Positions 39-24,012 of a DNA stretch of 24,214 bases are shown here, in pieces (the stretch's first letter is position 1; each line of letters starts with the position of its first letter). This DNA comes from a virus (lineage: Duplodnaviria; Heunggongvirae; Uroviricota; Caudoviricetes). Made by a program: the position numbers and the translations under genes. The notes beneath the pieces are model-generated. The model ran no database searches. It was given only the letters and a program-made list of their open reading frames with translations, and was not told the origin of the DNA. Location of the stretch: the IMG/VR virus record IMGVR_UViG_2695420649_000003. One strand, 5' to 3'.

Positions 39-365
39 TCACTGGCGCTGACACTTCATCACCTCCGGACGTAAATCACCATCCTTTGGTGCATTCAGAA
101 ACGCGTTCAGTGTCCCCGGTGCATCAGTCGGTGCCACATCAATATCCCCGACACGGGTTGGCTGCCAGCCGTTACAGTGAAGCGCAACCTCGTAATACCC
201 CGGCTCAGCCTCAATCACATAAGCACCGTTATTGTCCGTCACGCAAGTGGCAACAACGTGTGCCACAACGGTCGGACTGGTTCTTCTGGCCCGCAGTTCA
301 ATCGCACAATTTACGACAGGTTTACCCGCCCCATCTTTCAGTACACCTGAAATCTTTACTGCCAT
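39..365 (-). CDS. stf: Side tail fibre protein (Stf) N-terminal domain; ORF stops after ~108 aa, so truncated or disrupted
   Basis: Translation from the internal Met (MAVKISGVLKDGAGKPV...) matches the conserved N-terminus of lambda-type Stf as I recall it. It lies immediately downstream of lom, as in lambda. TGA stop at 39..41; no Stf-like continuation in the other two frames of the remaining 38 nt. Confidence 0.6.
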   Translation of the reverse strand: MAVKISGVLKDGAGKPVVNCAIELRARRTSPTVVAHVVATCVTDNNGAYVIEAEPGYYEVALHCNGWQPTRVGDIDVAPTDAPGTLNAFLNAPKDGDLRPEVMKCQRQ

Positions 366-428
366 ATTCACCCCACAAAAAGCCCGCCTGAACCAGCGGG
401 CAGTCATAACACTGTGTTACCTGGCTAA

Positions 429-1028
429 TCAGAACTTATAACCGACACCCACGATGAAACCGTCAGTGCGCCAGTCACCACTGCCGGAACCTTCATAAGC
501 AAGGTCAATGGCCACGGATTCGGTCGGGTTAAACTGCACGCCAGCCCCCCACGCCAGAGACGTGTTGCTGTGGCGACCGCCATCACTTCCGGTCAGCACA
601 TCGTGCGTTTTCCCCTTGTTGTCAGTTACGCGGAGATAATCCCCGGAGAAGGTCGACACACGGCTGTAAGCCACGCCCGCCATCGCATACGCGCTGAACC
701 ATTCATTCACGCGCACAGACGGCCCCGCCATCACGCTGAACCAGCGGTTACGCACGGAATCCTCATGCCAGCGGGTATCGCTGTAATGCGTTTTTTGCTC
801 ATCTTCAGCGTTGGCATAACTGAATGACGTAATCAGCCCCAGCGTGTCCGTAAACTCATAACGGTATTTCACGTTAATGCCCTTCAGGTCATCGCTGCCT
901 GGCATATCAGTATGGGTCTGAAGATACCCGGCGCTCAGCGTGGACTGATGTTCAGACGCCCATGCAGGCGCACCGGATACGGCCAGGCAAATGGCTGCGG
1001 ACAAAATGGCTGCACAAACTTTACGCAT
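429..1028 (-). CDS. lom: Lom outer-membrane beta-barrel protein (Ail/Lom family), 199 aa, full length
   Basis: ORF-track protein begins with the signal peptide MRKVCAAILSAAICLAVSGAPAWA and ends in ...GFIVGVGYKF, a typical beta-barrel terminus. Recognisable lambda Lom homologue in the expected position after J. Confidence 0.9.
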   Translation of the reverse strand: MRKVCAAILSAAICLAVSGAPAWASEHQSTLSAGYLQTHTDMPGSDDLKGINVKYRYEFTDTLGLITSFSYANAEDEQKTHYSDTRWHEDSVRNRWFSVMAGPSVRVNEWFSAYAMAGVAYSRVSTFSGDYLRVTDNKGKTHDVLTGSDGGRHSNTSLAWGAGVQFNPTESVAIDLAYEGSGSGDWRTDGFIVGVGYKF

Positions 1029-1052
1029 AATTACCTCTCGCTTTTCTGCAAT

Positions 1053-1076
1053 AAAAAAGGCACCATTTCTGGTGCC
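1053..1076 (-). terminator. Rho-independent terminator between J-like copy and lom (hairpin GGCACC/GGTGCC then T-run on the minus strand)
   Basis: Plus strand reads aaaaaa-GGCACC-atttct-GGTGCC; on the minus-strand transcript this is a 6-bp stem hairpin followed by UUUUUU. Sits 20 nt downstream of the J-like stop and upstream of the lom start. Confidence 0.55.
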
Positions 1077-1095
1077 CGTATCTGGGTTATAAAAT

Positions 1096-2202
1096 TCAGC
1101 TAATCGTGATGCCTGCAGTGGCTTTCTTCATCACCACAACCAGCAAATCGCTGATACTTGCTGTGGGATACCAGCCATTTACCAGCCATGCCGATACAGA
1201 AAACTCCAGCGTCATGTGACCGTGACCGGCAGGCATATCAATAACACCCGTATATATCAGCGTATTATCCAGGGTCGTTCGGTTATAAATTTCAGCACCG
1301 TTTTTCTTCACTATCAGGCGGCATGACGAATAAATATTGTTATTCTTCCGCTCATGTTTAGCACCGCGAAACGCCACCGCGGGAATAACAATTTGCCGAT
1401 CAAACGGCTGATCGTCATAAACCCTGACGGTAATGGTCCCTGATGGCCACCTCTCCGGTGCCCGGGAGTCCCGTGGGAAAGGTTTGCCCACTGTTTTAAC
1501 GAGATCGCCTTCAATCTGGTTCGCGGACAATTTTCCCAGAACCCGACAGTTCTTATTAATCGTGACGTTGTTGAGCGTCCCGGAGTTCGCGTTCACGTTA
1601 CCGCTGATATCGGCATTTTTCGCCGTCAGCCGTCCGCCAGGTGTCAGGGAAAATGCCGGAGGATTACCGCCGCTGGTAATGGTCGGAGCCGTCAGGCATT
1701 TCAGGAACACGTCGTTCATGAATATCTGATCGCCCTGACCAACAAACATCGGCTTTGTGTTGCCATTCGCAGGATTAATCATCGCAATCCTGTCTGCCGC
1801 CAGCAGCACCTGACTCTGCATTCCTGCTGGCGTATTCTCAATACCGGCACCGATACCCGCAATATAAAGGCGTCCGTCCTTCATCTGTTGCAGCTTCACA
1901 GCCCACATGCTGTTCAGGTTATTATTTGTATCAACCTGAACTTTCTGTATCTGCTGGATTGCAGCACTCTGATTTTCCAGTTTTTTATTGACGGTTTGCG
2001 TGATTTCATTGCTGACATTCGTAATGGACGTCCTGATTTCAGTCAGGTCCGGCGCAAGCTGACCGTTATCAATCTGCGTCCACAACTCCTTGCCGAGATG
2101 CGTTTTATTGATCAACCCTTTATAAAAATTCAGATAACCTTCTGCATCATCGCTCGCCCGACCGATGGCCTCCACAAATGCCGATTTGCCAACGGTGTTC
2201 AC
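1096..2202 (-). CDS. J: C-terminal portion (368 aa) of a second J-type tail-tip host-specificity protein with a distinct C-terminal domain; partial copy
   Basis: Protein aligns with the last ~370 aa of the full J at 4110..7607 (shared [37 protein letters not shown]..) but diverges over the last ~150 aa. Upstream continuity is broken by the N-run at 2357..2407. Confidence 0.75.
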
Positions 2203-2252
2203 ACTGCGAACGTAAAAATAATAATCATGGCCCGGCCTGATATTGATACTGG

Positions 2253-2511
2253 CGGCTATCCAGTACAGCGCCGTGCCAAGATAGCGTGCTGTGGTTTCAA
2301 CCTGCCTGATATCCGCAATCCGCTTTTCCGAGAACCAGAACTCAAACTGTACCGTCNNNNNNNNNNNNNNNNNNNNNNNNNNNNNNNNNNNNNNNNNNNN
2401 NNNNNNNCGGCTATCCAGTACAGCGCCGTGCCAAGATAGCGGGCGCTGGTTTCAACCTGCCTGATATCCGCAATCCGCTTTTCCGAAAACCAGAACTCAA
2501 ACTGCACCGTC
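2253..2511. repeat. 51-N gap (2357..2407) flanked by two near-identical 104-bp direct copies (2253..2356 and 2408..2511)
   Basis: Both flanks read cggctatccagtacagcgccgtgccaagatagcg...aactcaaactg(t/c)accgtc and differ at only a few positions. The left copy is identical to 5283..5386 in the full J gene. Pattern is typical of two overlapping contig ends joined with Ns. Confidence 0.85.
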
Positions 2512-3590
2512 GGGTCATATACAGCCAGTTTCGGGACCGCCGTTATCTGAAAATACCCCGGTATCAGTTCAATAGTGACAGGCGCTGCCGGTGCCGCAAT
2601 CCGGAACGATACCGACGCCGGATCGCCCTGCTGCCCCCGGGCATTTACCGCCCGGACTGTCAGACTGTAATTCCCCAGCGCCAGCTGCCTGAAGCGGTAT
2701 GTGGTTTCCGTCGTCCTGGCTGTGCTGACCAGCCGCTCACTGCCGTCGTCCGCTGCCACGGTCAGGCGAAGCAGGAAGCTCACACCCTTCACCACCTTCG
2801 GCGTGTCCCATCGCGCCAGCACCTGATATTCCCCGCTGTCTGCGGTGACTTCGGCAGTCAGGTGCTGCACCGCTGGCGGCGTGACACCATTCACCGTGCC
2901 GCGCCGGTCACCGTCAAAGTGTGCCCCGTTATCCACGATGGCCTCTTTTTCCGGCACATGCTGCACGGCGGTGATGGCATACGTGCCGTCGTCGTTCTCA
3001 CGGATACTCACGCAGCGGAACAGACGCTGGCGCAGCGTCGGCAGCTTCAGCCCCCACACGCTGTATTCTGCAACGCCGTCAGGAACCCGGCTCACTTTCA
3101 CCTTCACGCCGTCGGTGACGGACTGGACCTCCACGCTGACCGGATTGCCACTTCCGTCAACCAGGCTTATCAGCGTGGTACCGGAGGACGGCAGCGTGAT
3201 TTCACGGTCGAGCGTCAGCGTCCGGGTCTGGCTGTTCACCGCCAGTACGCGACCACCGGTGCTGATACCGGCATAATCATCATCGCAGATTTCAATGACA
3301 TCACCCGGTACATGGCGAAGCCCTTCTGCGCCCACGCTGAAGTCCACGGTCTGCGTTTCCAGCAGTTCCGTTTTAATCAGCCACAGCCCGGCTCGGTGTG
3401 CCTGCCCCCGGCTGGTACAGCCAAAGGCATCCATCTTCGTGACATTACGACCGTAACGGGCAATGGCCTGCGTATCCTCCACAAGCTCTGTCGCCGTCTC
3501 CCAGCCGTTATCTGGGTCAATCCAGTTCACCTCAACGGCATTATGGCGGTCCTTCAGGGCGCTGAAGCTGTAGCGGAACGGCGCGCCATC
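2256..3590 (-). pseudogene. J: Central portion of a J-like tail-tip gene (equivalent to J residues ~378-800), lacking its 5' end and interrupted by the N gap
   Basis: ORF 2256..3530 ([23 protein letters not shown]...) parallels the full J protein ([32 protein letters not shown]...). DNA homology to 6420..6471 continues to 3590, then stops abruptly at the 'n' at 3591. Frame is lost at the N-run. Confidence 0.7.
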
Positions 3591-3591
3591 N

Positions 3592-4039
3592 CATCACTTC
3601 CGGTCAGCACATCGTGCGTTTTCCCCTTATTGTCAGTTACGCGGATATAATCCCCGGAAAAAGTCGACACACGGCTGTAAGCCACACCCGCCATCGCATA
3701 CGCGCTGAACCATTCATTCACGCGCACAGACGGCCCCGCCATCACGCTGAACCAGCGGTTACGCACGGAATCTTCATGCCAGCGGGTATCGCTGTAACGG
3801 GTCAGCTGGCGATTCTTGTCTCCTGCATAGCTGAATGACGTCACCAGCCCCAGCGTATCCGTAAACTCATAACGGTATTTCACGTTAATCCCGTTCAGAT
3901 CATCACTGCCGGGAACGTTGGTCCGGGCATGAAGATACCCCGCGCTCAGCGTGGACTGATGTTCAGACGCCCATGCAGGCGCACCGGATACGGCCAGGCA
4001 AATGGCTGCGGACAAAATGGCTGCACAAACTTTACGCAT
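3592..4039 (-). pseudogene. lom: lom second allele, N-terminal ~149 codons only; 3' end replaced by J-like sequence at an 'n' junction
   Basis: Protein MRKVCAAILSAAICLAVSGAPAWASEHQSTLSAGYLHARTNVPGSDDLNGINVKYRYEF... is Lom-like up to ...THDVLTGSD, then the sequence switches to J-like DNA at position 3591. Differs from the lom at 429..1028 in a patch at residues ~36-80. Confidence 0.7.
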
Positions 4040-4109: not shown

Positions 4110-7100
4110 TCAACGAATACTGATGCCGGAAGCCGCTTTTTTGGTCACAATCACCGTACAGTCGGTGATATTGCCTGCCCCCTGATTGCCTTTCTGGAAA
4201 ATCTTAAACTCCAGAGTGACGCTACCACCACCACTAGGCATATCAATAACTGCACTGTAACTACCGGGAATGGCACCTTTAGTTTCTCTGGATGCGATTA
4301 ATACGCCGTTTTTGCGAACTTCAAAACCATAACCCGTGTATCGCGTGCCTCCTGGGTTATTTCCGCTCCCCGGATCGTCATACGCTATACCGTTAAAAAT
4401 AATGGGCGGAATAATAATCTGGCGGTCAAAGTTATGATCATCGCTTATGGTGACTGTAACCGTCCCGTTTGGTGTTTCCGTGTTACCCCACGTACCAGCC
4501 TGTTTCGGAAATGATTTGGATACAGCTTTAACGAAGTCACCTCTGACCTGAGTCGCCTCCAGCATGCCCTTAATCGTACAGTTTTCATTTACCGTGACAT
4601 TGTTGAGCGTCCCGGCGTTCGCATTCACACTGCCACTGATATCCGCATTTTTAGCGGTCAGCTTTCCGTCCGGAGTCAGGGAAAATGCCGATGGATTTCC
4701 ACCGCTGGTAATGGTGGGGGCCGTCAGGCGTTTCAGGAACACGTCGTTCATGAATATCTGATCGCCCTGACCAACAAACATCGGTTTTGTGTTGCCATTC
4801 GCAGGATTAACCATCGCAATCCTGTCCGCCGCCAGCAGCACCTGACTCTGCATGCCGTCAGGGGTGTTCTCAATACCGGCACCAATACCCGCGATATAAA
4901 GGCGTCCGTCCTGCATCTGCTGCAGCTTCACAGCCCACATGCTGTTCAGGTTATTATTTGTATCAACCTGAACCTTCTGTATCTGCTGAATTGCCGCACT
5001 CTGGTCTTCCAGTTTCTTATTGACGGTCTGCGTGATTTCATTGCTGACATCCGTAATGGACGTCCTGATTTCAGCCAGGTCAGGCGCAAGCTGACCGTTA
5101 TCAATCTGCGTCCACAGCTCCTGAGCCAGATGGGTTTTCCCTATCTCGCCTTTGAAAAAATCCAGATAACCGGATGCATCATCACTCGGCTGACCAACAG
5201 CCTCCACGAATGCCGATTTGCCAACGGTGTTCACACTGCGGATATAAAAGTAATAATCATGGCCCGGTTTGATATTGATACTGGCGGCTATCCAGTACAG
5301 CGCCGTGCCAAGATAGCGTGCTGTGGTTTCAACCTGCCTGATATCCGCAATCCGCTTTTCCGAGAACCAGAACTCAAACTGTACCGTCGGATCATAAACC
5401 GCAAGATGCGGCGTGGCGGTTATCTGAAAATAGCCCGGCGTCAGCTCAATCCGCGACAGCGCTGCCGGTGCGGCAATCCGGAACGATACCGACGCCGGAT
5501 CGCCCTGCTGCCCCCACGCATTTACTGCCCGGACTGTCAGCCTGTAGTTCCCCAGCGCCAGTTGTGTGAAGCGGTAAGTGGTTTCCGTCGTCCGGGCCGT
5601 GCTGACCAGCCGCTCACTGCCGTCATCCGCTGTTACGGTCAGACGGAGCAGGAAGCTCACGCCCTTCACCACCTTCGGCGTGTCCCAGCGCGCCAGCACC
5701 TGATATTCCCCGCTGTCTGCGGTGACTTCGGCAGTCAGGTGCTGCACCGCTGGCGGCGTGACACCATTCACCGTGCCGCTCTGGTCGCCGTCAAAGTGCG
5801 CCCCGTTATCCACGATGGCTTCTTTTTCCGGCACATGCTGCACGGCGGTGATGGCATACGTGCCGTCGTCGTTCTCACGGATACTCACGCAGCGGAACAA
5901 TCGCTGGTGCAGCGTCGGCAGCTTCAGCCCCCACACGCTGTATTCAGCAACACCGTCAGGAACACGGCTCACTTTTACCTTCACGCCGTCGGTGACGGAC
6001 TGGACCTCCACGCTGACCGGATTCCCCTGCCCGTCAACCAGGCTTATCAGCGTGGTGCCGGAGGATGGCAGCGTGATTTCACGGTCGAGCGTCAGCGTCC
6101 GGGTCTGGCTGTTCACCGCCAGCACGCGCCCGCCGGTGCGGATACCGGCATAGTCATCATCGCAGATTTCAATGACATCGCCCGGTACATGACGAAGCCC
6201 TTCAGCACCCACGCTGAAATCCACGGTCTGCGTCTCCAGCAGTTCCGTTTTAATCAGCCACAGCCCGGCGCGGTGTGCCTGCCCCCGGCTGGTACAGCCA
6301 AAGGCATCCATCTTCGTGACGTTACGACCGTAACGGACAATGGCCTGCGTATCCTCCACAAGCTCTGTCGCCGTCTCCCAGCCGTTATCCGGGTCAATCC
6401 AGTTCACCTCAACGGCATTATGGCGGTCTTTCAGGGCGCTGAAACTGTAGCGGAACGGCGCGCCATCATCCGGCATCACCACATTACTGCGGTTATAGGC
6501 CCACACCTTATCCGACTGTCGGTCCTGCACGAACGTCAGCGTCTGCCCGTTCCATACCGGCATACAGCGCATCGCCGAGCAGAAATCACTGAGCACATCC
6601 CACGCCTTGCGCTGTGTGGTCAGCCAGGCATTACAGGTGATGCGCGGCTCCGTGCTGCCAAAGCCGTCCGGCACCGACTGGTCACAGTACTGGCCGATGA
6701 CATACAGCGCCCATTTATCCACATCTGCCGCACCAAGACGTTTCCCCATGCCATAGCGCGGATGGGTCAGCATATCCCACAGACACCAGGCCATGTTGTT
6801 GCTGTATGCCGGTTTTAACGTTCCGTCCCAGATACCGCTGTATTGCCGCGTCTGCGGGTTATAGTTCGACGGCACCTGCAGAATGCGCCCGCGAAGATGA
6901 TAATTACGGCTCACCTGCTGGCTGCCGAACTGCTCCGAATCCACCTGTACGCCGACCAGTGCCGTGTTCGGGTAGCACTGTTTCACATCGATGATTTCGG
7001 TGTACGACGACCAGAGCGTTTTGTTCTGCAGCTGGTCTGTGGTGCTGTCCGGCGTCATTCTGCGCATCCGGATATTAAACGGGCGCGGCGGCAGGTTATC

Positions 7101-7607
7101 CACCACCACCGAGGCCAGATACTGCGAGGTGGTTTTGCCCTTAATGGTGATGTCTTTTTCCGTCACCCAGCCACCGTTACGCTGTATCTGAACCAGCAGG
7201 CGAACTTCAGACGGATTCCTGTCTCCCTTTGAGGTGGTTTCCACCAGTGCCTGTACACCGAAGGTAAAACGCAGTCGGTCAATGTTTGCCGACGTGATGG
7301 TCCGGGTGATCGGCGTGTCATATTTCACTTCCGTACCCAGCACCGTCTCGGAGCCGGAGGATTCAAATCCCTCCGGCGGTGACTGCTCCTGCTCACCTGC
7401 CCGGAACACCACCGTGACGCCGGAGATGTTGGTATTCCCCTCACTGTCCAGCACCGGCGTACTGTTCAGCAGCACGCTTTTTAATCCATCCACCGGACCT
7501 TCAACCGGCCCTTCGCTGATGGCATCGATCACACTCAGCAGCTGCGTGGACTTCAGGTTGTCCTTCGCTTCGCGCGGGGTATGCCCCTTACTGCTGCCTT
7601 TACCCAT
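4110..7607 (-). CDS. J: Tail tip / host-specificity protein J (central tail fibre), 1165 aa
   Basis: N-terminus [34 protein letters not shown]... matches lambda gpJ as I recall it. Lies after I in lambda order and contains fibronectin-type-III-like repeats. The last ~155 aa differ from the partial copy at 1096..2202. Confidence 0.95.

Positions 7608-18675: not shown

Positions 18676-18695
<20 letters not shown>
17376..18695 (-). CDS. C: Capsid assembly / head maturation protease C (ClpP/SppA-like fold), 439 aa, GTG start
   Basis: Protein from the GTG codon at 18695 reads (M)TAELRNLPHIASMAFNEPLMLEPAYARVFF..., matching lambda gpC. Start overlaps the B 3' end by 20 nt, as in lambda. The ORF-track ORF extends 45 codons further upstream into B. 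Confidence 0.9.
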
Positions 18696-22376
<3,681 letters not shown>

Positions 22377-22402
<26 letters not shown>

Positions 22403-22922
22403 TCAGCAACCCCGGTATCAGTTCATCCAGCGCGGCTGCTTTGTTCATGGCTTTGATGATATCCCGTTTCAGGAAATCAACATGTCGGTTTTCCAGTTCC
22501 GGAAAACGCCGCTGCACCGACAGGGGGATCCCGTCGAGAATACTGGCAATTTCACCTGCGATCCGCGACAGCACGAAAGTACAGAATGCGGTTTCCACCA
22601 CTTCAGCGGAGTCTCTGGCATTTTTCAGCTCCTGTGCGTCGGCCTGCGCACGCGTAAGTCGATGGCGTTCGTACTCAATAGTCCCTGGCTGGAGATCTGT
22701 CTCGCTGGCCTGCCGCAGTTCTTCAACTTCCCGGCGCAGCTTTTCGTTCTCAATTTCAGCATCCCTTTCGGCATACCATCTTATAACGGCGGCAGAGTCA
22801 TAAAGCACCTCATTACCCTTGCCACCGCCTCGCAGAACGGGCATTCCCTGTTCCTGCCAGTTCTGAATGGTACGGATACTCGCACCGAAAATGTCAGCCA
22901 GCTGCTTTTTGTTGACTTCCAT
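22377..22922 (-). CDS. nu1: Terminase small subunit Nu1, 181 aa
   Basis: MEVNKKQLADIFGASIRTIQNWQEQGMPVLRGGGKGNEVLYDSAAVIRWYAERDAEIENEKLRREVEELRQ... matches lambda Nu1 as I recall it. Winged-HTH N-terminus; sits immediately downstream of cosB. Confidence 0.95.
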
Positions 22923-22939
22923 TGTTCATTCCACGGACA

Positions 22940-23075
22940 AAAACAGAGAAAGGAAACGACAGAGGCCAAAAAGCCCGTTTTCAGCACCTGTCGTTTCCTT
23001 TCTTTTCAGGGGGTGTTTTAAATAAAAACATTAGGTTACGGCGAAGAAGAACGGAAACGCCTTAAACCGGAAAAT
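22940..23075 (-). promoter_or_regulatory. cosB: Nu1-binding R-elements (R1 ~22944..22964, R2 ~22985..23002, R3 ~23044..23062) and AT-rich IHF site I1 (~23013..23038)
   Basis: Three copies of the GGAAACG(A/C)C / GTCGTTTCC core in the lambda arrangement (two in one orientation, one inverted), with an AT-rich block ttttaaataaaaacattaggtta between R3 and R2. Lies between cosN and the nu1 start. Confidence 0.7.
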
Positions 23076-23099
23076 TGTCATAAATAGCGAAAACCCGCG

Positions 23100-23111
23100 C
23101 GCCTTCCGCCC
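23100..23111 (-). promoter_or_regulatory. cosN-equivalent 12-mer (terminase nicking site); minus-strand sequence GGGCGGAAGGCG
   Basis: Flanks match my recollection of the lambda left end (…CGCGGGTTTTCGCTATTTATG…) and right end (…GGTTACG). In the lambda register the 12-mer reads GGGCGG-AAGGCG against lambda GGGCGG-CGACCT. Confidence 0.6.
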
Positions 23112-23150
23112 CGTAACCTGTCGGATCGCCGGAAAGGACCCGCAAAATGA
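23112..23150 (-). promoter_or_regulatory. cosQ-side region (right-end sequence adjacent to cosN)
   Basis: Sequence cgtaacctgtcggatcgccggaaaggacc is adjacent to cosN on the side opposite cosB, corresponding to the lambda right-end terminus (...GGTCCTTTCCGGTGATCCGACAGGTTACG). Exact cosQ limits not determined. Confidence 0.45.
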
Positions 23151-23310
23151 TAATAATTATCATCTACATGTCACAACGTGCATCTACGCCATCAAACCAC
23201 GTCAAATAATCAATTATGACGCAGGTATCGTATTAATTGATCTGCATCAACTTAACGTAAAAACAACTTCAGACAATACAAATCAGCGACACTGAATACA
23301 GGGCAACCTC

Positions 23311-23544
23311 ATGTCAACGAAGAACAGAACCCGCAGAACAACAACCCGCAACATCCGCTTTCCTAACCAAATGATTGAACAAATTAACATCGCTCTTGTT
23401 CAAAAAGGGTCCGGGAATTTCTCAGCCTGGGTCATTGAAGCCTGCCGCCGGAGACTGTGCTCAGAAAAAAGAGTTTCGCCTGAAGCAAACAAAGAAAAGA
23501 GTGACATTACTGAATTGCTCAGAAAACAGGTTAGACCAGATTGA
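23311..23544 (+). CDS. Small basic protein of unknown function (DUF3950 / YnfO-YlcI-like)
   Basis: 77-aa ORF MSTKNRTRRTTTRNIRFPNQMIEQINIALVQKGSGNFSAWVIEACRRRL.... Opposite strand to the late operon, in the AT-rich segment beyond cos. Family assignment is from memory of E. coli prophage small ORFs and not verified. Confidence 0.55.
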   Translation: MSTKNRTRRTTTRNIRFPNQMIEQINIALVQKGSGNFSAWVIEACRRRLCSEKRVSPEANKEKSDITELLRKQVRPD

Positions 23545-23601
23545 AGCAATTTAGATAATCGTGCAGACTACGCCCCCTCATATCACATGGAAGGTACTAC
23601 A

Positions 23602-24012
23602 ATGGCTCAGGTTGCCATTTTTAAACAAATATTCGATAAAGTGCGAAATAATTTAAACTATCACTGGTTTTATTCTGAACTAAAACGTCACAATGTCTCA
23701 CATTACATTTACTATTTAGCCACAGAGAATATTCATCTTGTTCTTGAAAACGATAATACGGTTTTAATAAAAGGACAGGGTAAGGTTGTAAATGTAAGAT
23801 TTTCAAAAAATAAATGCCTTATAGAAGCCACCTTAAAAGGATTCAAATCAGGAGAGTTATCATTTTACGAATACAGGAAAAATCTTGCTACAGCAGGGGT
23901 TTTCAGATGGATTACAAATATCCACGAAAACAAAAGGTATTACTATACCTTTGATAATTCATTACTCTTTACTGAGAACATACAGAACACTACACAAATA
24001 TTTCCGCACTAA
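23602..24012 (+). CDS. DUF1398-family protein (YbcV/YdfO-like), unknown function, ~136 aa
   Basis: ORF 23587..24012; preferred start is the ATG at 23602 with GGAAGG 9 nt upstream. Protein [45 protein letters not shown]... is Asn/Lys/Tyr-rich, and the DNA is much more AT-rich than the structural genes. Family call is from recall. Confidence 0.6.

What the first reader, a model, noticed from the sequence alone, without database searches (positions are those of the whole stretch)
23087..23118. cosN cohesive-end 12-mer differs from lambda at 5 bases while flanks are conserved
The flanks match my recollection of lambda cos, but the 12-mer reads GGGCGGAAGGCG rather than lambda's GGGCGGCGACCT. The five differences are consecutive within the second half (positions 7-10 and 12). 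A changed cohesive end would affect terminase nicking or cos compatibility, or it could indicate a packaging-defective prophage.
Basis: partly seen in the sequence, partly recalled or inferred. Interest (0 to 1): 0.45.

Follow-up and report, generated by a model that had tools for sequence, protein, structure and literature searches.

The report
Common alternative lambda cohesive-end sequence
The prophage's DNA-cutting site (cos) does carry a sticky-end sequence that differs from phage lambda's at five bases, but this is a recurring natural version found in about 2% of lambda-like cos sites in E. coli, and it fits the known rule that this half of the site is free to vary.

Summary
On the minus strand at 23100..23111 the cosN 12-mer reads GGGCGGAAGGCG, against GGGCGGCGACCT in sequenced lambda. 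It differs at positions 7, 8, 9, 10 and 12. cosQ, the CG dinucleotides beside both nick sites, I2, R3, R2, R1 and Nu1/A are conserved.

It is not unique and there is no sign of decay.
- The same 12-mer occurs in 78 IMG/VR contigs.
- It occurs at about 170 of about 7056 lambda-like cos places in complete E. coli genomes (2.4%).
- It occurs in 23 plasmids of about 46 kb from E. coli, Shigella, E. albertii and E. fergusonii.
- It occurs in the deposited phage PhiR46_1, an N15-like linear phage-plasmid with lambda-type virion genes.
- It accompanies lambda-type and 21-like TerS/cosB, and a satellite-like element's Nu1-family protein.

No terminase large-subunit (TerL) residue separates the two alleles, and one identical TerL sequence is found next to both.

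Published work from the Feiss laboratory shows that bp 7-12 tolerate change and vary naturally, in N15, phiD326, Gifsy-1 and mEp213.

The allele is most likely functional and neutral for cutting. Its ends should not anneal with lambda-type ends. I found no paper containing this exact 12-mer. Interest is low.

The parts
23135..23141 (-). cosQ core GGGTCCT, inside the conserved block GGGTCCTTTCCGGCGATCCGACAGGTTACG (23112..23141). cosQ is the packaging-termination signal.
   Evidence: Identical to lambda apart from one base at bp -17. The 7-bp core definition is my recollection of Wieczorek and Feiss 2001.
23098..23113 (-). cosN as 16 bp: CG | GGGCGGAAGGCG | CG. The predicted nicks fall before bp 1 on the top strand and after bp 12 on the bottom strand.
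   Evidence: The 16-bp definition and the conserved flanking CG pairs are described.
23100..23111 (-). Predicted 12-nt 5' cohesive end GGGCGGAAGGCG. The left half (bp 1-6) is identical to lambda. The right half reads AAGGCG instead of CGACCT.
   Evidence: It has 10 G+C of 12, like lambda, and a nearest-neighbour dG37 of -17.8 against -18.2 kcal/mol.
23062..23094 (-). I2 spacer and static-bend segment (lambda bp 18-50). It is conserved except for bp 35, A to C, at window 23077.
23047..23062 (-). cosB R3 (lambda bp 50-65), a TerS binding site. It is identical to lambda.
23004..23046 (-). Interval between R3 and R2, which in lambda holds the IHF site I1.
   Evidence: Its position follows from the R3 and R2 coordinates and the R3-I1-R2-R1 order. 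The IHF site itself was not tested.
22988..23003 (-). cosB R2 (AGAAAGGAAACGACAG on the minus strand).
   Evidence: Exact 16-mer found. It is the inverted copy of R1, as described for lambda.
22947..22962 (-). cosB R1 (CTGTCGTTTCCTTTCT on the minus strand).
   Evidence: Exact 16-mer found.
22377..22922 (-). Nu1, the terminase small subunit (TerS), 181 aa. It has 3 substitutions relative to lambda (K48R, A75T, L132I).
20477..22402 (-). A, the terminase large subunit (TerL), 641 aa. It has 4 substitutions relative to lambda (T151S, D185E, L404R, T466I).
   Evidence: No residue separates the cosN allele groups.

Best explanation
This is a working lambda-type cos site that carries a natural alternative allele of cosN.

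Mechanism (inferred from lambda; not measured for this allele):
- Nu1 (TerS) dimers, with IHF, bind R3, R2 and R1 of cosB. These sites are unchanged here.
- That anchors gpA (TerL) on cosN.
- TerL nicks the top strand between ...TTACG and GGGCGG, and the bottom strand 12 bp to the right.
- The result is 5' overhangs GGGCGGAAGGCG (left end) and CGCCTTCCGCCC (right end).
- The bottom-strand nick is positioned by the cosB-anchored terminase, not by the local sequence. So bp 7-12 can change without harming cutting, while the left half and the CG pairs beside the nicks stay fixed.
- Both ends of one chromosome come from the same allele, so they still pair perfectly. Their predicted stability is about the same as lambda's, so cyclisation is unaffected.

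The allele most likely arose in one lineage and spread into other lambdoid backgrounds by recombination through the highly conserved cosQ, left-half cosN and I2 flanks. Its one predicted consequence is that these ends cannot anneal with lambda-type ends. Hybrid chromosomes cut at one cos of each type would therefore cyclise poorly.
For: Shown here:
- All other cos subsites and the terminase genes are intact and nearly identical to lambda.
- The whole Nu1-to-J module has full-length ORFs and is about 96% identical to deposited phage genomes such as Kati and Chlobot.
- The identical 12-mer is in 78 IMG/VR contigs. The 50 with a TACG left flank fall into 34 distinct flank haplotypes.
- It is at 170 places in 159 of 5426 complete E. 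coli genomes, against 7056 lambda-like cos places in total.
- It is in 23 PLSDB plasmids, in phage PhiR46_1, whose record lists E. coli ECOR13 as host, and in the Ravinvirus YDC107_1.
- It occurs with lambda-type cosB and Nu1, with a 21-like TerS and cosB in ETEC H10407, and with a satellite-like element's Nu1-family protein that is 35% identical.
- Across 18 variant and 39 lambda-type loci, no TerL residue is fixed between the groups. One TerL sequence is identical in both, and five TerS sequences are shared.
- Among all flank-conserved sites captured by the IMG/VR scans, which fixed bp 1-6, variation was seen only at bp 7-12 and, in a few sites, at bp 13-14.
- G+C content and predicted duplex stability match lambda.

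From the literature (PMC4669245):
- Mutations in bp 7-12 have minimal effect. C11G has none, while the symmetric G2C cuts yield tenfold.
- Natural variants in N15 and phiD326 (positions 9, 12) and Gifsy-1 (positions 8, 9, 11) lie in the same half.
- Lambda TerL uses N15 cosN as well as its own.
- mEp213 and LLS carry GGGCGGCGCGCT.
Against: - Nobody has measured cutting at this exact allele. The tested natural variant (N15) differs at only two positions, not five.
- C10, which is symmetric to G3, is changed here. I found no data on that position.
- The window also carries A35C in the I2 segment whose block replacement (bp 30-35) impairs packaging.
- The evidence that PhiR46_1 is a plaque-forming phage is only its GenBank record, which lists host ECOR13. 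I found no paper describing it.
- The allele spectrum is two common alleles plus rare ones, not a broad scatter. So free drift alone is not a full account.
Confidence: 0.8

Rival explanations
1. The changed right half weakens or misplaces bottom-strand nicking. This cos would then be crippled and the prophage could not produce infectious particles.
For: Five of six right-half bases differ, more than in any variant tested experimentally. Twofold-symmetric matches fall from 5 to 4 per half-site. The window has an extra I2 change at bp 35 and a J-lom rearrangement scar at its left end.
Against: - The allele is conserved base for base in at least 34 flank haplotypes and with three kinds of TerS-family gene. 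A dead site would not show that pattern.
- It is in a deposited phage and in 23 plasmids, most of phage-genome size.
- The terminase and head genes next to it are full length.
- The literature shows the right half is insensitive to changes.
Confidence: 0.05
2. The allele is kept by selection as a separate cohesive-end compatibility class. It would stop chromosomes of these elements from joining or cyclising with ends made at lambda-type cos sites of co-resident prophages or satellites. It is tied to the N15-like phage-plasmid lifestyle.
For: - There are two common alleles five steps apart, with only rare intermediates: CAGGCG, AAGGCT and AAGCGT, one contig each.
- The allele is strongly enriched on plasmids: 16 of 32 plasmid cos places against 154 of 7024 chromosomal ones, Fisher p = 3e-18.
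- Even a two-base end mismatch lowers yield fourfold.
- E. coli genomes hold up to 7 lambda-like cos places.
Against: - The plasmid enrichment is equally explained by descent from one phage-plasmid lineage.
- Both ends of a normally packaged chromosome come from the same allele, so selection on compatibility would be weak.
- The allele also sits in ordinary integrated prophages, including this window.
- I ran no test of selection.
Confidence: 0.1
3. The 12-mer is a sequencing or assembly error in this one record.
For: None found.
Against: The same sequence is present in independent assemblies: 78 IMG/VR contigs, 159 complete E. coli genomes and 23 plasmids. Four IMG/VR contigs are 100% identical to the window over 1.4 to 13.8 kb.
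Confidence: 0.01

Closest known systems
Phage lambda cos (cosQ-cosN-I2-cosB; 12-nt 5' cohesive end GGGCGGCGACCT)
   Same: The layout is the same, upstream of Nu1/A. The cosQ block, the left half of cosN, the CG pairs at both nick sites, I2, R3, R2 and R1 all match. TerL is 637/641 identical and TerS 178/181 identical.
   Different: bp 7-10 and 12 of the cohesive end read AAGG.G instead of CGAC.T. One base differs in I2 (bp 35) and one near cosQ (bp -17).
cosN of N15 and phiD326 (GGGCGGCGTCCG), a natural right-half variant studied experimentally
   Same: Variation is confined to bp 7-12, and both share the T12G change. N15 cosN is cut as well as lambda cosN by lambda TerL. This window's allele is also common on N15-like linear phage-plasmids.
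   Different: N15 differs from lambda at 2 positions and this allele at 5. N15 has its own TerS, a single-R cosB, and a TerL only about 65% identical to lambda's. Here the terminase and cosB are lambda's own type.
Other reported natural cosN variants: mEp213 and LLS (GGGCGGCGCGCT), Gifsy-1 (differs at bp 8, 9, 11)
   Same: The left half is conserved and the right half varies.
   Different: The right-half sequences are different, and those phages have more diverged head and terminase genes. This exact 12-mer does not appear in the text of any paper in the library searched. The survey by Vahanian et al. 2017 (Virology 509:140) could not be read.

Membership tests
Lambda-type cos site (12-nt 5' cohesive ends, Nu1/gpA-type terminase) | It lies immediately upstream of the terminase small- and large-subunit genes, on the same strand. 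| tested here: met
   cosN bp 1 is at 23111. The Nu1 ATG is at 22922 and A spans 20477..22402, all on the minus strand.
Lambda-type cos site (12-nt 5' cohesive ends, Nu1/gpA-type terminase) | A conserved cosN left half (GGGCGG) and 5'-CG dinucleotides flanking both nick positions. | tested here: met
   The site reads ACG|GGGCGG......|CGCGGG, identical to lambda at these positions. Their conservation is stated.
Lambda-type cos site (12-nt 5' cohesive ends, Nu1/gpA-type terminase) | cosQ upstream of cosN at lambda spacing. | tested here: met
   GGGTCCTTTCCGGCGATCCGACAGGTTACG aligns to lambda without gaps, with one substitution.
Lambda-type cos site (12-nt 5' cohesive ends, Nu1/gpA-type terminase) | cosB with R3, I1, R2 (inverted) and R1 at lambda spacing from cosN. 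| tested here: met
   R3 is identical at bp 50-65. The R2 and R1 16-mers are exact, and there are no indels relative to lambda. IHF binding at I1 was not tested.
Lambda-type cos site (12-nt 5' cohesive ends, Nu1/gpA-type terminase) | Terminase actually makes nicks staggered by 12 nt at this site. | not testable with these tools
   This needs sequencing of virion DNA ends or an in vitro cos-cleavage assay. No IMG/VR contig began or ended at the predicted nick.
Natural right-half cosN variants of lambda-like phages (N15, phiD326, Gifsy-1, mEp213) | Differences from lambda are restricted to bp 7-12, with bp 1-6 and the flanking CG pairs unchanged. | tested here: met
   The differences are at bp 7, 8, 9, 10 and 12 only. 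The same restriction holds for every other allele seen in IMG/VR.
Natural right-half cosN variants of lambda-like phages (N15, phiD326, Gifsy-1, mEp213) | The variant is used by a viable phage. | tested here: inconclusive
   The PhiR46_1 record (PV340565, listed host ECOR13, complete genome) carries the allele. I could find no paper or end-sequence data for it.
Terminase co-adapted to a new cut site (as in lambda gpA suppressors of cosN mutations) | TerL residues that co-vary with the cosN allele. | tested here: not met
   No residue is fixed between 18 variant and 39 lambda-type loci. The strongest association, T466I, is 72% against 18%. An identical TerL occurs with both alleles.

The most novel reading that the evidence does not exclude
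GGGCGGAAGGCG may be more than a neutral variant. It could be a second, selectively maintained cohesive-end compatibility class among Escherichia lambda-like elements, centred on N15-like phage-plasmids with lambda-type virions. In hosts that carry several cos-bearing prophages and satellites, it would limit the formation or survival of hybrid chromosomes made with lambda-type cos sites.
Probability: 0.1. Interest if true: 0.35.

Novelty: new member of a known kind. Interest (0 to 1): 0.13.

Why it matters
It matters little for biology in general. It is one more, fairly common, natural allele of a very well studied site, and it behaves as the published 'functionally asymmetric cosN' model predicts.

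Its practical uses are modest:
- Tools that predict phage termini, and cos annotations, should accept GGGCGGAAGGCG as a lambda-type end.
- It is a natural five-base test case for the claim that bp 7-12 are unconstrained.
- Ends of this type should not join to lambda-type ends. That is relevant to cosmid and in vitro packaging work, and to thinking about mixed packaging among co-resident prophages, phage-plasmids and satellites.

Tried and rejected
- **Small inversion.** I asked whether the right half is a small inversion of lambda's. The reverse complement of CGACCT or GCGACCTC does not give the observed sequence (by reading), so I rejected this.
- **TerL and TerS co-variation with the allele.** None is fixed.
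- **Scan of 185,579 species-representative genomes for alleles with bp 7 not C.** It gave 12 hits. Only Escherichia sp. E1V33 is a real cos. The other 11 are chance matches in GC-rich genomes with no cosQ or CG flanks.
- **Contigs ending exactly at the predicted nick, as physical-end evidence.** There were none among 78 IMG/VR hits.
- **Literature.** Vahanian et al. 2017, the survey of natural cosN variation, is not held. No paper was found for the PhiR phage series. No paper text contains the 12-mer in a phage context.
- **Satellite-like cos elements.** I first took the cos class with the right flank CCGGGGAAAATCATG for a PICI. The annotation shows an ordinary prophage with a 21-like TerS. 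The class exemplified by L088 is satellite-like.
- **Stf comparison with PhiR46_1.** It was uninformative, matching only the N-terminus.

Full report
**What is in the window.** The window holds the late region of a lambda-like prophage in reverse orientation. All of the following genes are on the minus strand:
- Nu1 at 22377..22922
- A at 20477..22402
- W at 20274..20480
- B at 18676..20277

The rest of the head and tail genes, down to J (4110..7607), have lambda-like lengths. The region is about 96% identical over 92-96% of its length to deposited phage genomes such as Kati, Chlobot and PhiR42_1. The cos site lies upstream of Nu1 on the minus strand.

**Checking the observation.** GGGCGGAAGGCG occurs once, at 23100..23111 on the minus strand. 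I aligned the reverse complement of 22900..23320 with deposited lambda, 2H10, PhiR63_1 and an Stx1a phage. All four read GGGCGGCGACCT where the window reads GGGCGGAAGGCG. The differences are at positions 7, 8, 9, 10 and 12. The register is right for two reasons. Lambda's end is quoted as 5'-GGGCGGCGACCT. The N15 record annotates its first 12 bases, GGGCGGCGTCCG, as the sticky end. Apart from the 12-mer, only bp -17 and bp 35 differ from lambda between bp -32 and +70. Five changes inside 6 bp in an otherwise 94-97% identical 421-bp stretch is not chance (permutation P = 3.5e-5 to 5e-4).

**Anatomy.** All the other cos elements are present at lambda spacing:

| Element | Window coordinates |
|---|---|
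| cosQ core GGGTCCT | 23135..23141 |
| CG pairs beside both nick positions | 23112..23113 and 23098..23099 |
| I2 | 23062..23094 |
| R3 | 23047..23062 |
| R2 | 22988..23003 |
| R1 | 22947..22962 |

TerL differs from lambda gpA at 4 of 641 residues, and TerS at 3 of 181. The variant end has the same G+C count as lambda's (10 of 12). Its predicted duplex stability is nearly the same, at -17.8 against -18.2 kcal/mol.

**How common the allele is.** It is not a one-off.
- An exact 25-mer spanning the variant is in 78 IMG/VR contigs. The 50 with a TACG left flank fall into 34 flank haplotypes.
- I searched complete E. coli genomes with a 47-nt query that can only seed on the variant. It found 170 places in 159 of 5426 genomes. 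A 131-nt query that seeds on the conserved flanks found 7056 lambda-like cos places. The variant share is therefore about 2.4%.
- A capped IMG/VR sample gave 3 variant sites in 120.
- The allele is enriched on plasmids: 16 of 32 plasmid cos places against 154 of 7024 chromosomal ones (Fisher p = 3e-18).
- PLSDB holds 23 such plasmids, mostly about 46 kb, from E. coli, Shigella sonnei, E. albertii and E. fergusonii.
- Two phage records carry it. One is YDC107_1, classed in Ravinvirus. The other is PhiR46_1 (listed host ECOR13), which has telL and telR, ParA/ParB and a large primase like N15, but lambda-type Nu1 through J.
- Among species-representative genomes, only an Escherichia genome has it. 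The other 11 hits of that scan are chance matches.
- The window itself is 100% identical to four IMG/VR contigs from isolate genomes.
- One of these contigs (L006), which matches the last 1.4 kb of the window exactly, continues into a normal lambdoid lysis and Q region.

**Independence from the terminase.** The allele occurs in three settings:
- lambda-type cosB with Nu1, as in this window
- a 21-like TerS N-terminus with its own cosB, in prophages such as the one in ETEC H10407, whose TerL is 639/641 identical to the window's
- a satellite-like element with a D5-type primase, E-like and D-like capsid proteins, AlpA and a Nu1-family protein only 35% identical to Nu1

Across 18 variant and 39 lambda-type loci with a complete A gene, no TerL residue is fixed between the groups. 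One TerL sequence is identical in a variant locus (L023) and two lambda-type loci (L030, L124). Five TerS sequences are shared. The same enzyme therefore lives with either allele.

**Other alleles.** Complete IMG/VR scans for sites with conserved flanks found only right-half variants:
- Two contigs: TGACCT.
- One contig each: AGACCT, CAACCT, CGACCG, CAGGCG, AAGGCT, AAGCGT, CAGACG, CTGACG.
- With CG at bp 7-8, none differed at bp 9.

Some of these are intermediate between the two common alleles.

**What is known.** The Feiss laboratory showed that cosN is functionally asymmetric.
- Mutations in bp 7-12 have minimal effects. C11G has none, while the symmetric G2C costs tenfold. The reason is that the bottom-strand nick is positioned by terminase anchored at cosB.
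- Natural variation follows the same rule. N15 and phiD326 differ at positions 9 and 12, and Gifsy-1 at 8, 9 and 11. The CG pairs at the nicks and cosQ stay fixed.
- Lambda TerL uses N15 cosN as efficiently as its own.
- A two-base mismatch between the two ends lowers yield about fourfold (PMC4669245).
- mEp213 and LLS have GGGCGGCGCGCT.

A dedicated survey exists (Vahanian et al. 2017, Virology 509:140), but I could not read it. No paper in the searchable library contains this 12-mer in a phage context.

**Conclusion.** The best explanation, at about 0.8 confidence, is a functional natural cosN allele that is neutral for cutting and has been spread by recombination through the conserved flanks. 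Its only predicted effect is that its ends cannot pair with lambda-type ends. The nicking positions and packaging competence are inferred, not shown.

The rivals are:
- a crippled cos (about 0.05), contradicted by the allele's conservation, its spread and the intact neighbouring genes
- a selectively maintained compatibility class linked to phage-plasmids (about 0.1), which is not excluded
- a sequencing or assembly artefact (about 0.01), excluded by independent recurrence

This is one more member of a known kind of variation, and interest is low.

Noticed in passing
window 23077 (lambda bp 35, minus strand): A-to-C change inside the poly-dA tract of I2. It lies within the bp 30-35 segment whose block replacement impairs lambda packaging. 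In the IMG/VR loci it accompanies 7 variant-cosN sites and 1 lambda-type site.
   Followed up: partly
window 39..4039 (minus strand): Downstream of the complete J gene (4110..7607) lies what looks like a J-lom duplication or recombination scar:
- a truncated lom (3554..4039, Ail_Lom positions 1-157 of 199)
- a second, partial J split over two reading frames (2256..3530 and 1096..2202)
- a complete lom (429..1028)
- a tail-fibre N-terminal ORF that stops after 122 aa (39..407)
   Followed up: partly
L147 (PhiR46_1, PV340565), L145 (pAH01-1), L148 (YDC107_1); PLSDB hits H163-H185: A group of linear phage-plasmids of about 46 kb combines an N15-type maintenance module (telL/telR, ParA/ParB, large primase) with lambda-type virion genes from Nu1 to J. 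Half of all plasmid-borne lambda-like cos places in complete E. coli genomes carry the variant cosN.
   Followed up: partly
L088 1..7204 (also L151, L173, L179, L080, L188, L191): A satellite-like element encodes a D5-type primase, an E-like capsid protein, a D-like decoration protein, AlpA, a lambda-like cosQ and cosN, a Nu1-family protein (35% identical to Nu1, at best 47% to N15 gp1) and an Abi protein. It sits next to a truncated lambda E gene and tail genes. Among these elements the cosN right half has four alleles: CGACCT, AAGGCG, CAGACG and CTGACG.
   Followed up: partly
L232 (ETEC H10407, NC_017633, 1307900..1310615): A prophage carries the variant cosN, a more diverged cosQ region, a 21-like TerS N-terminus with its own R-type repeats (ATGTCGG), and a TerL 639/641 identical to the window's. 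An IS66 element lies between the decoration-protein and capsid genes.
   Followed up: partly
window 23311..23544 and 23587..24012 (plus strand): To the right of cos, transcribed away from it, are a 77-aa DUF3950 protein (YlcI/YnfO family in RefSeq relatives) and a 141-aa DUF1398 protein. The same pair flanks cos in E. coli strains 582 and NCCP 15734.
   Followed up: no
L192-L203 except L194: The pattern ACGGGGCGG-N9-GGGTTTTCGC also matches 11 GC-rich genomes, including Streptomyces, Leifsonia, Dietzia and Verrucomicrobiota MAGs. None has a cosQ or a CG flank at the second nick position, so I judged them chance matches.
   Followed up: yes
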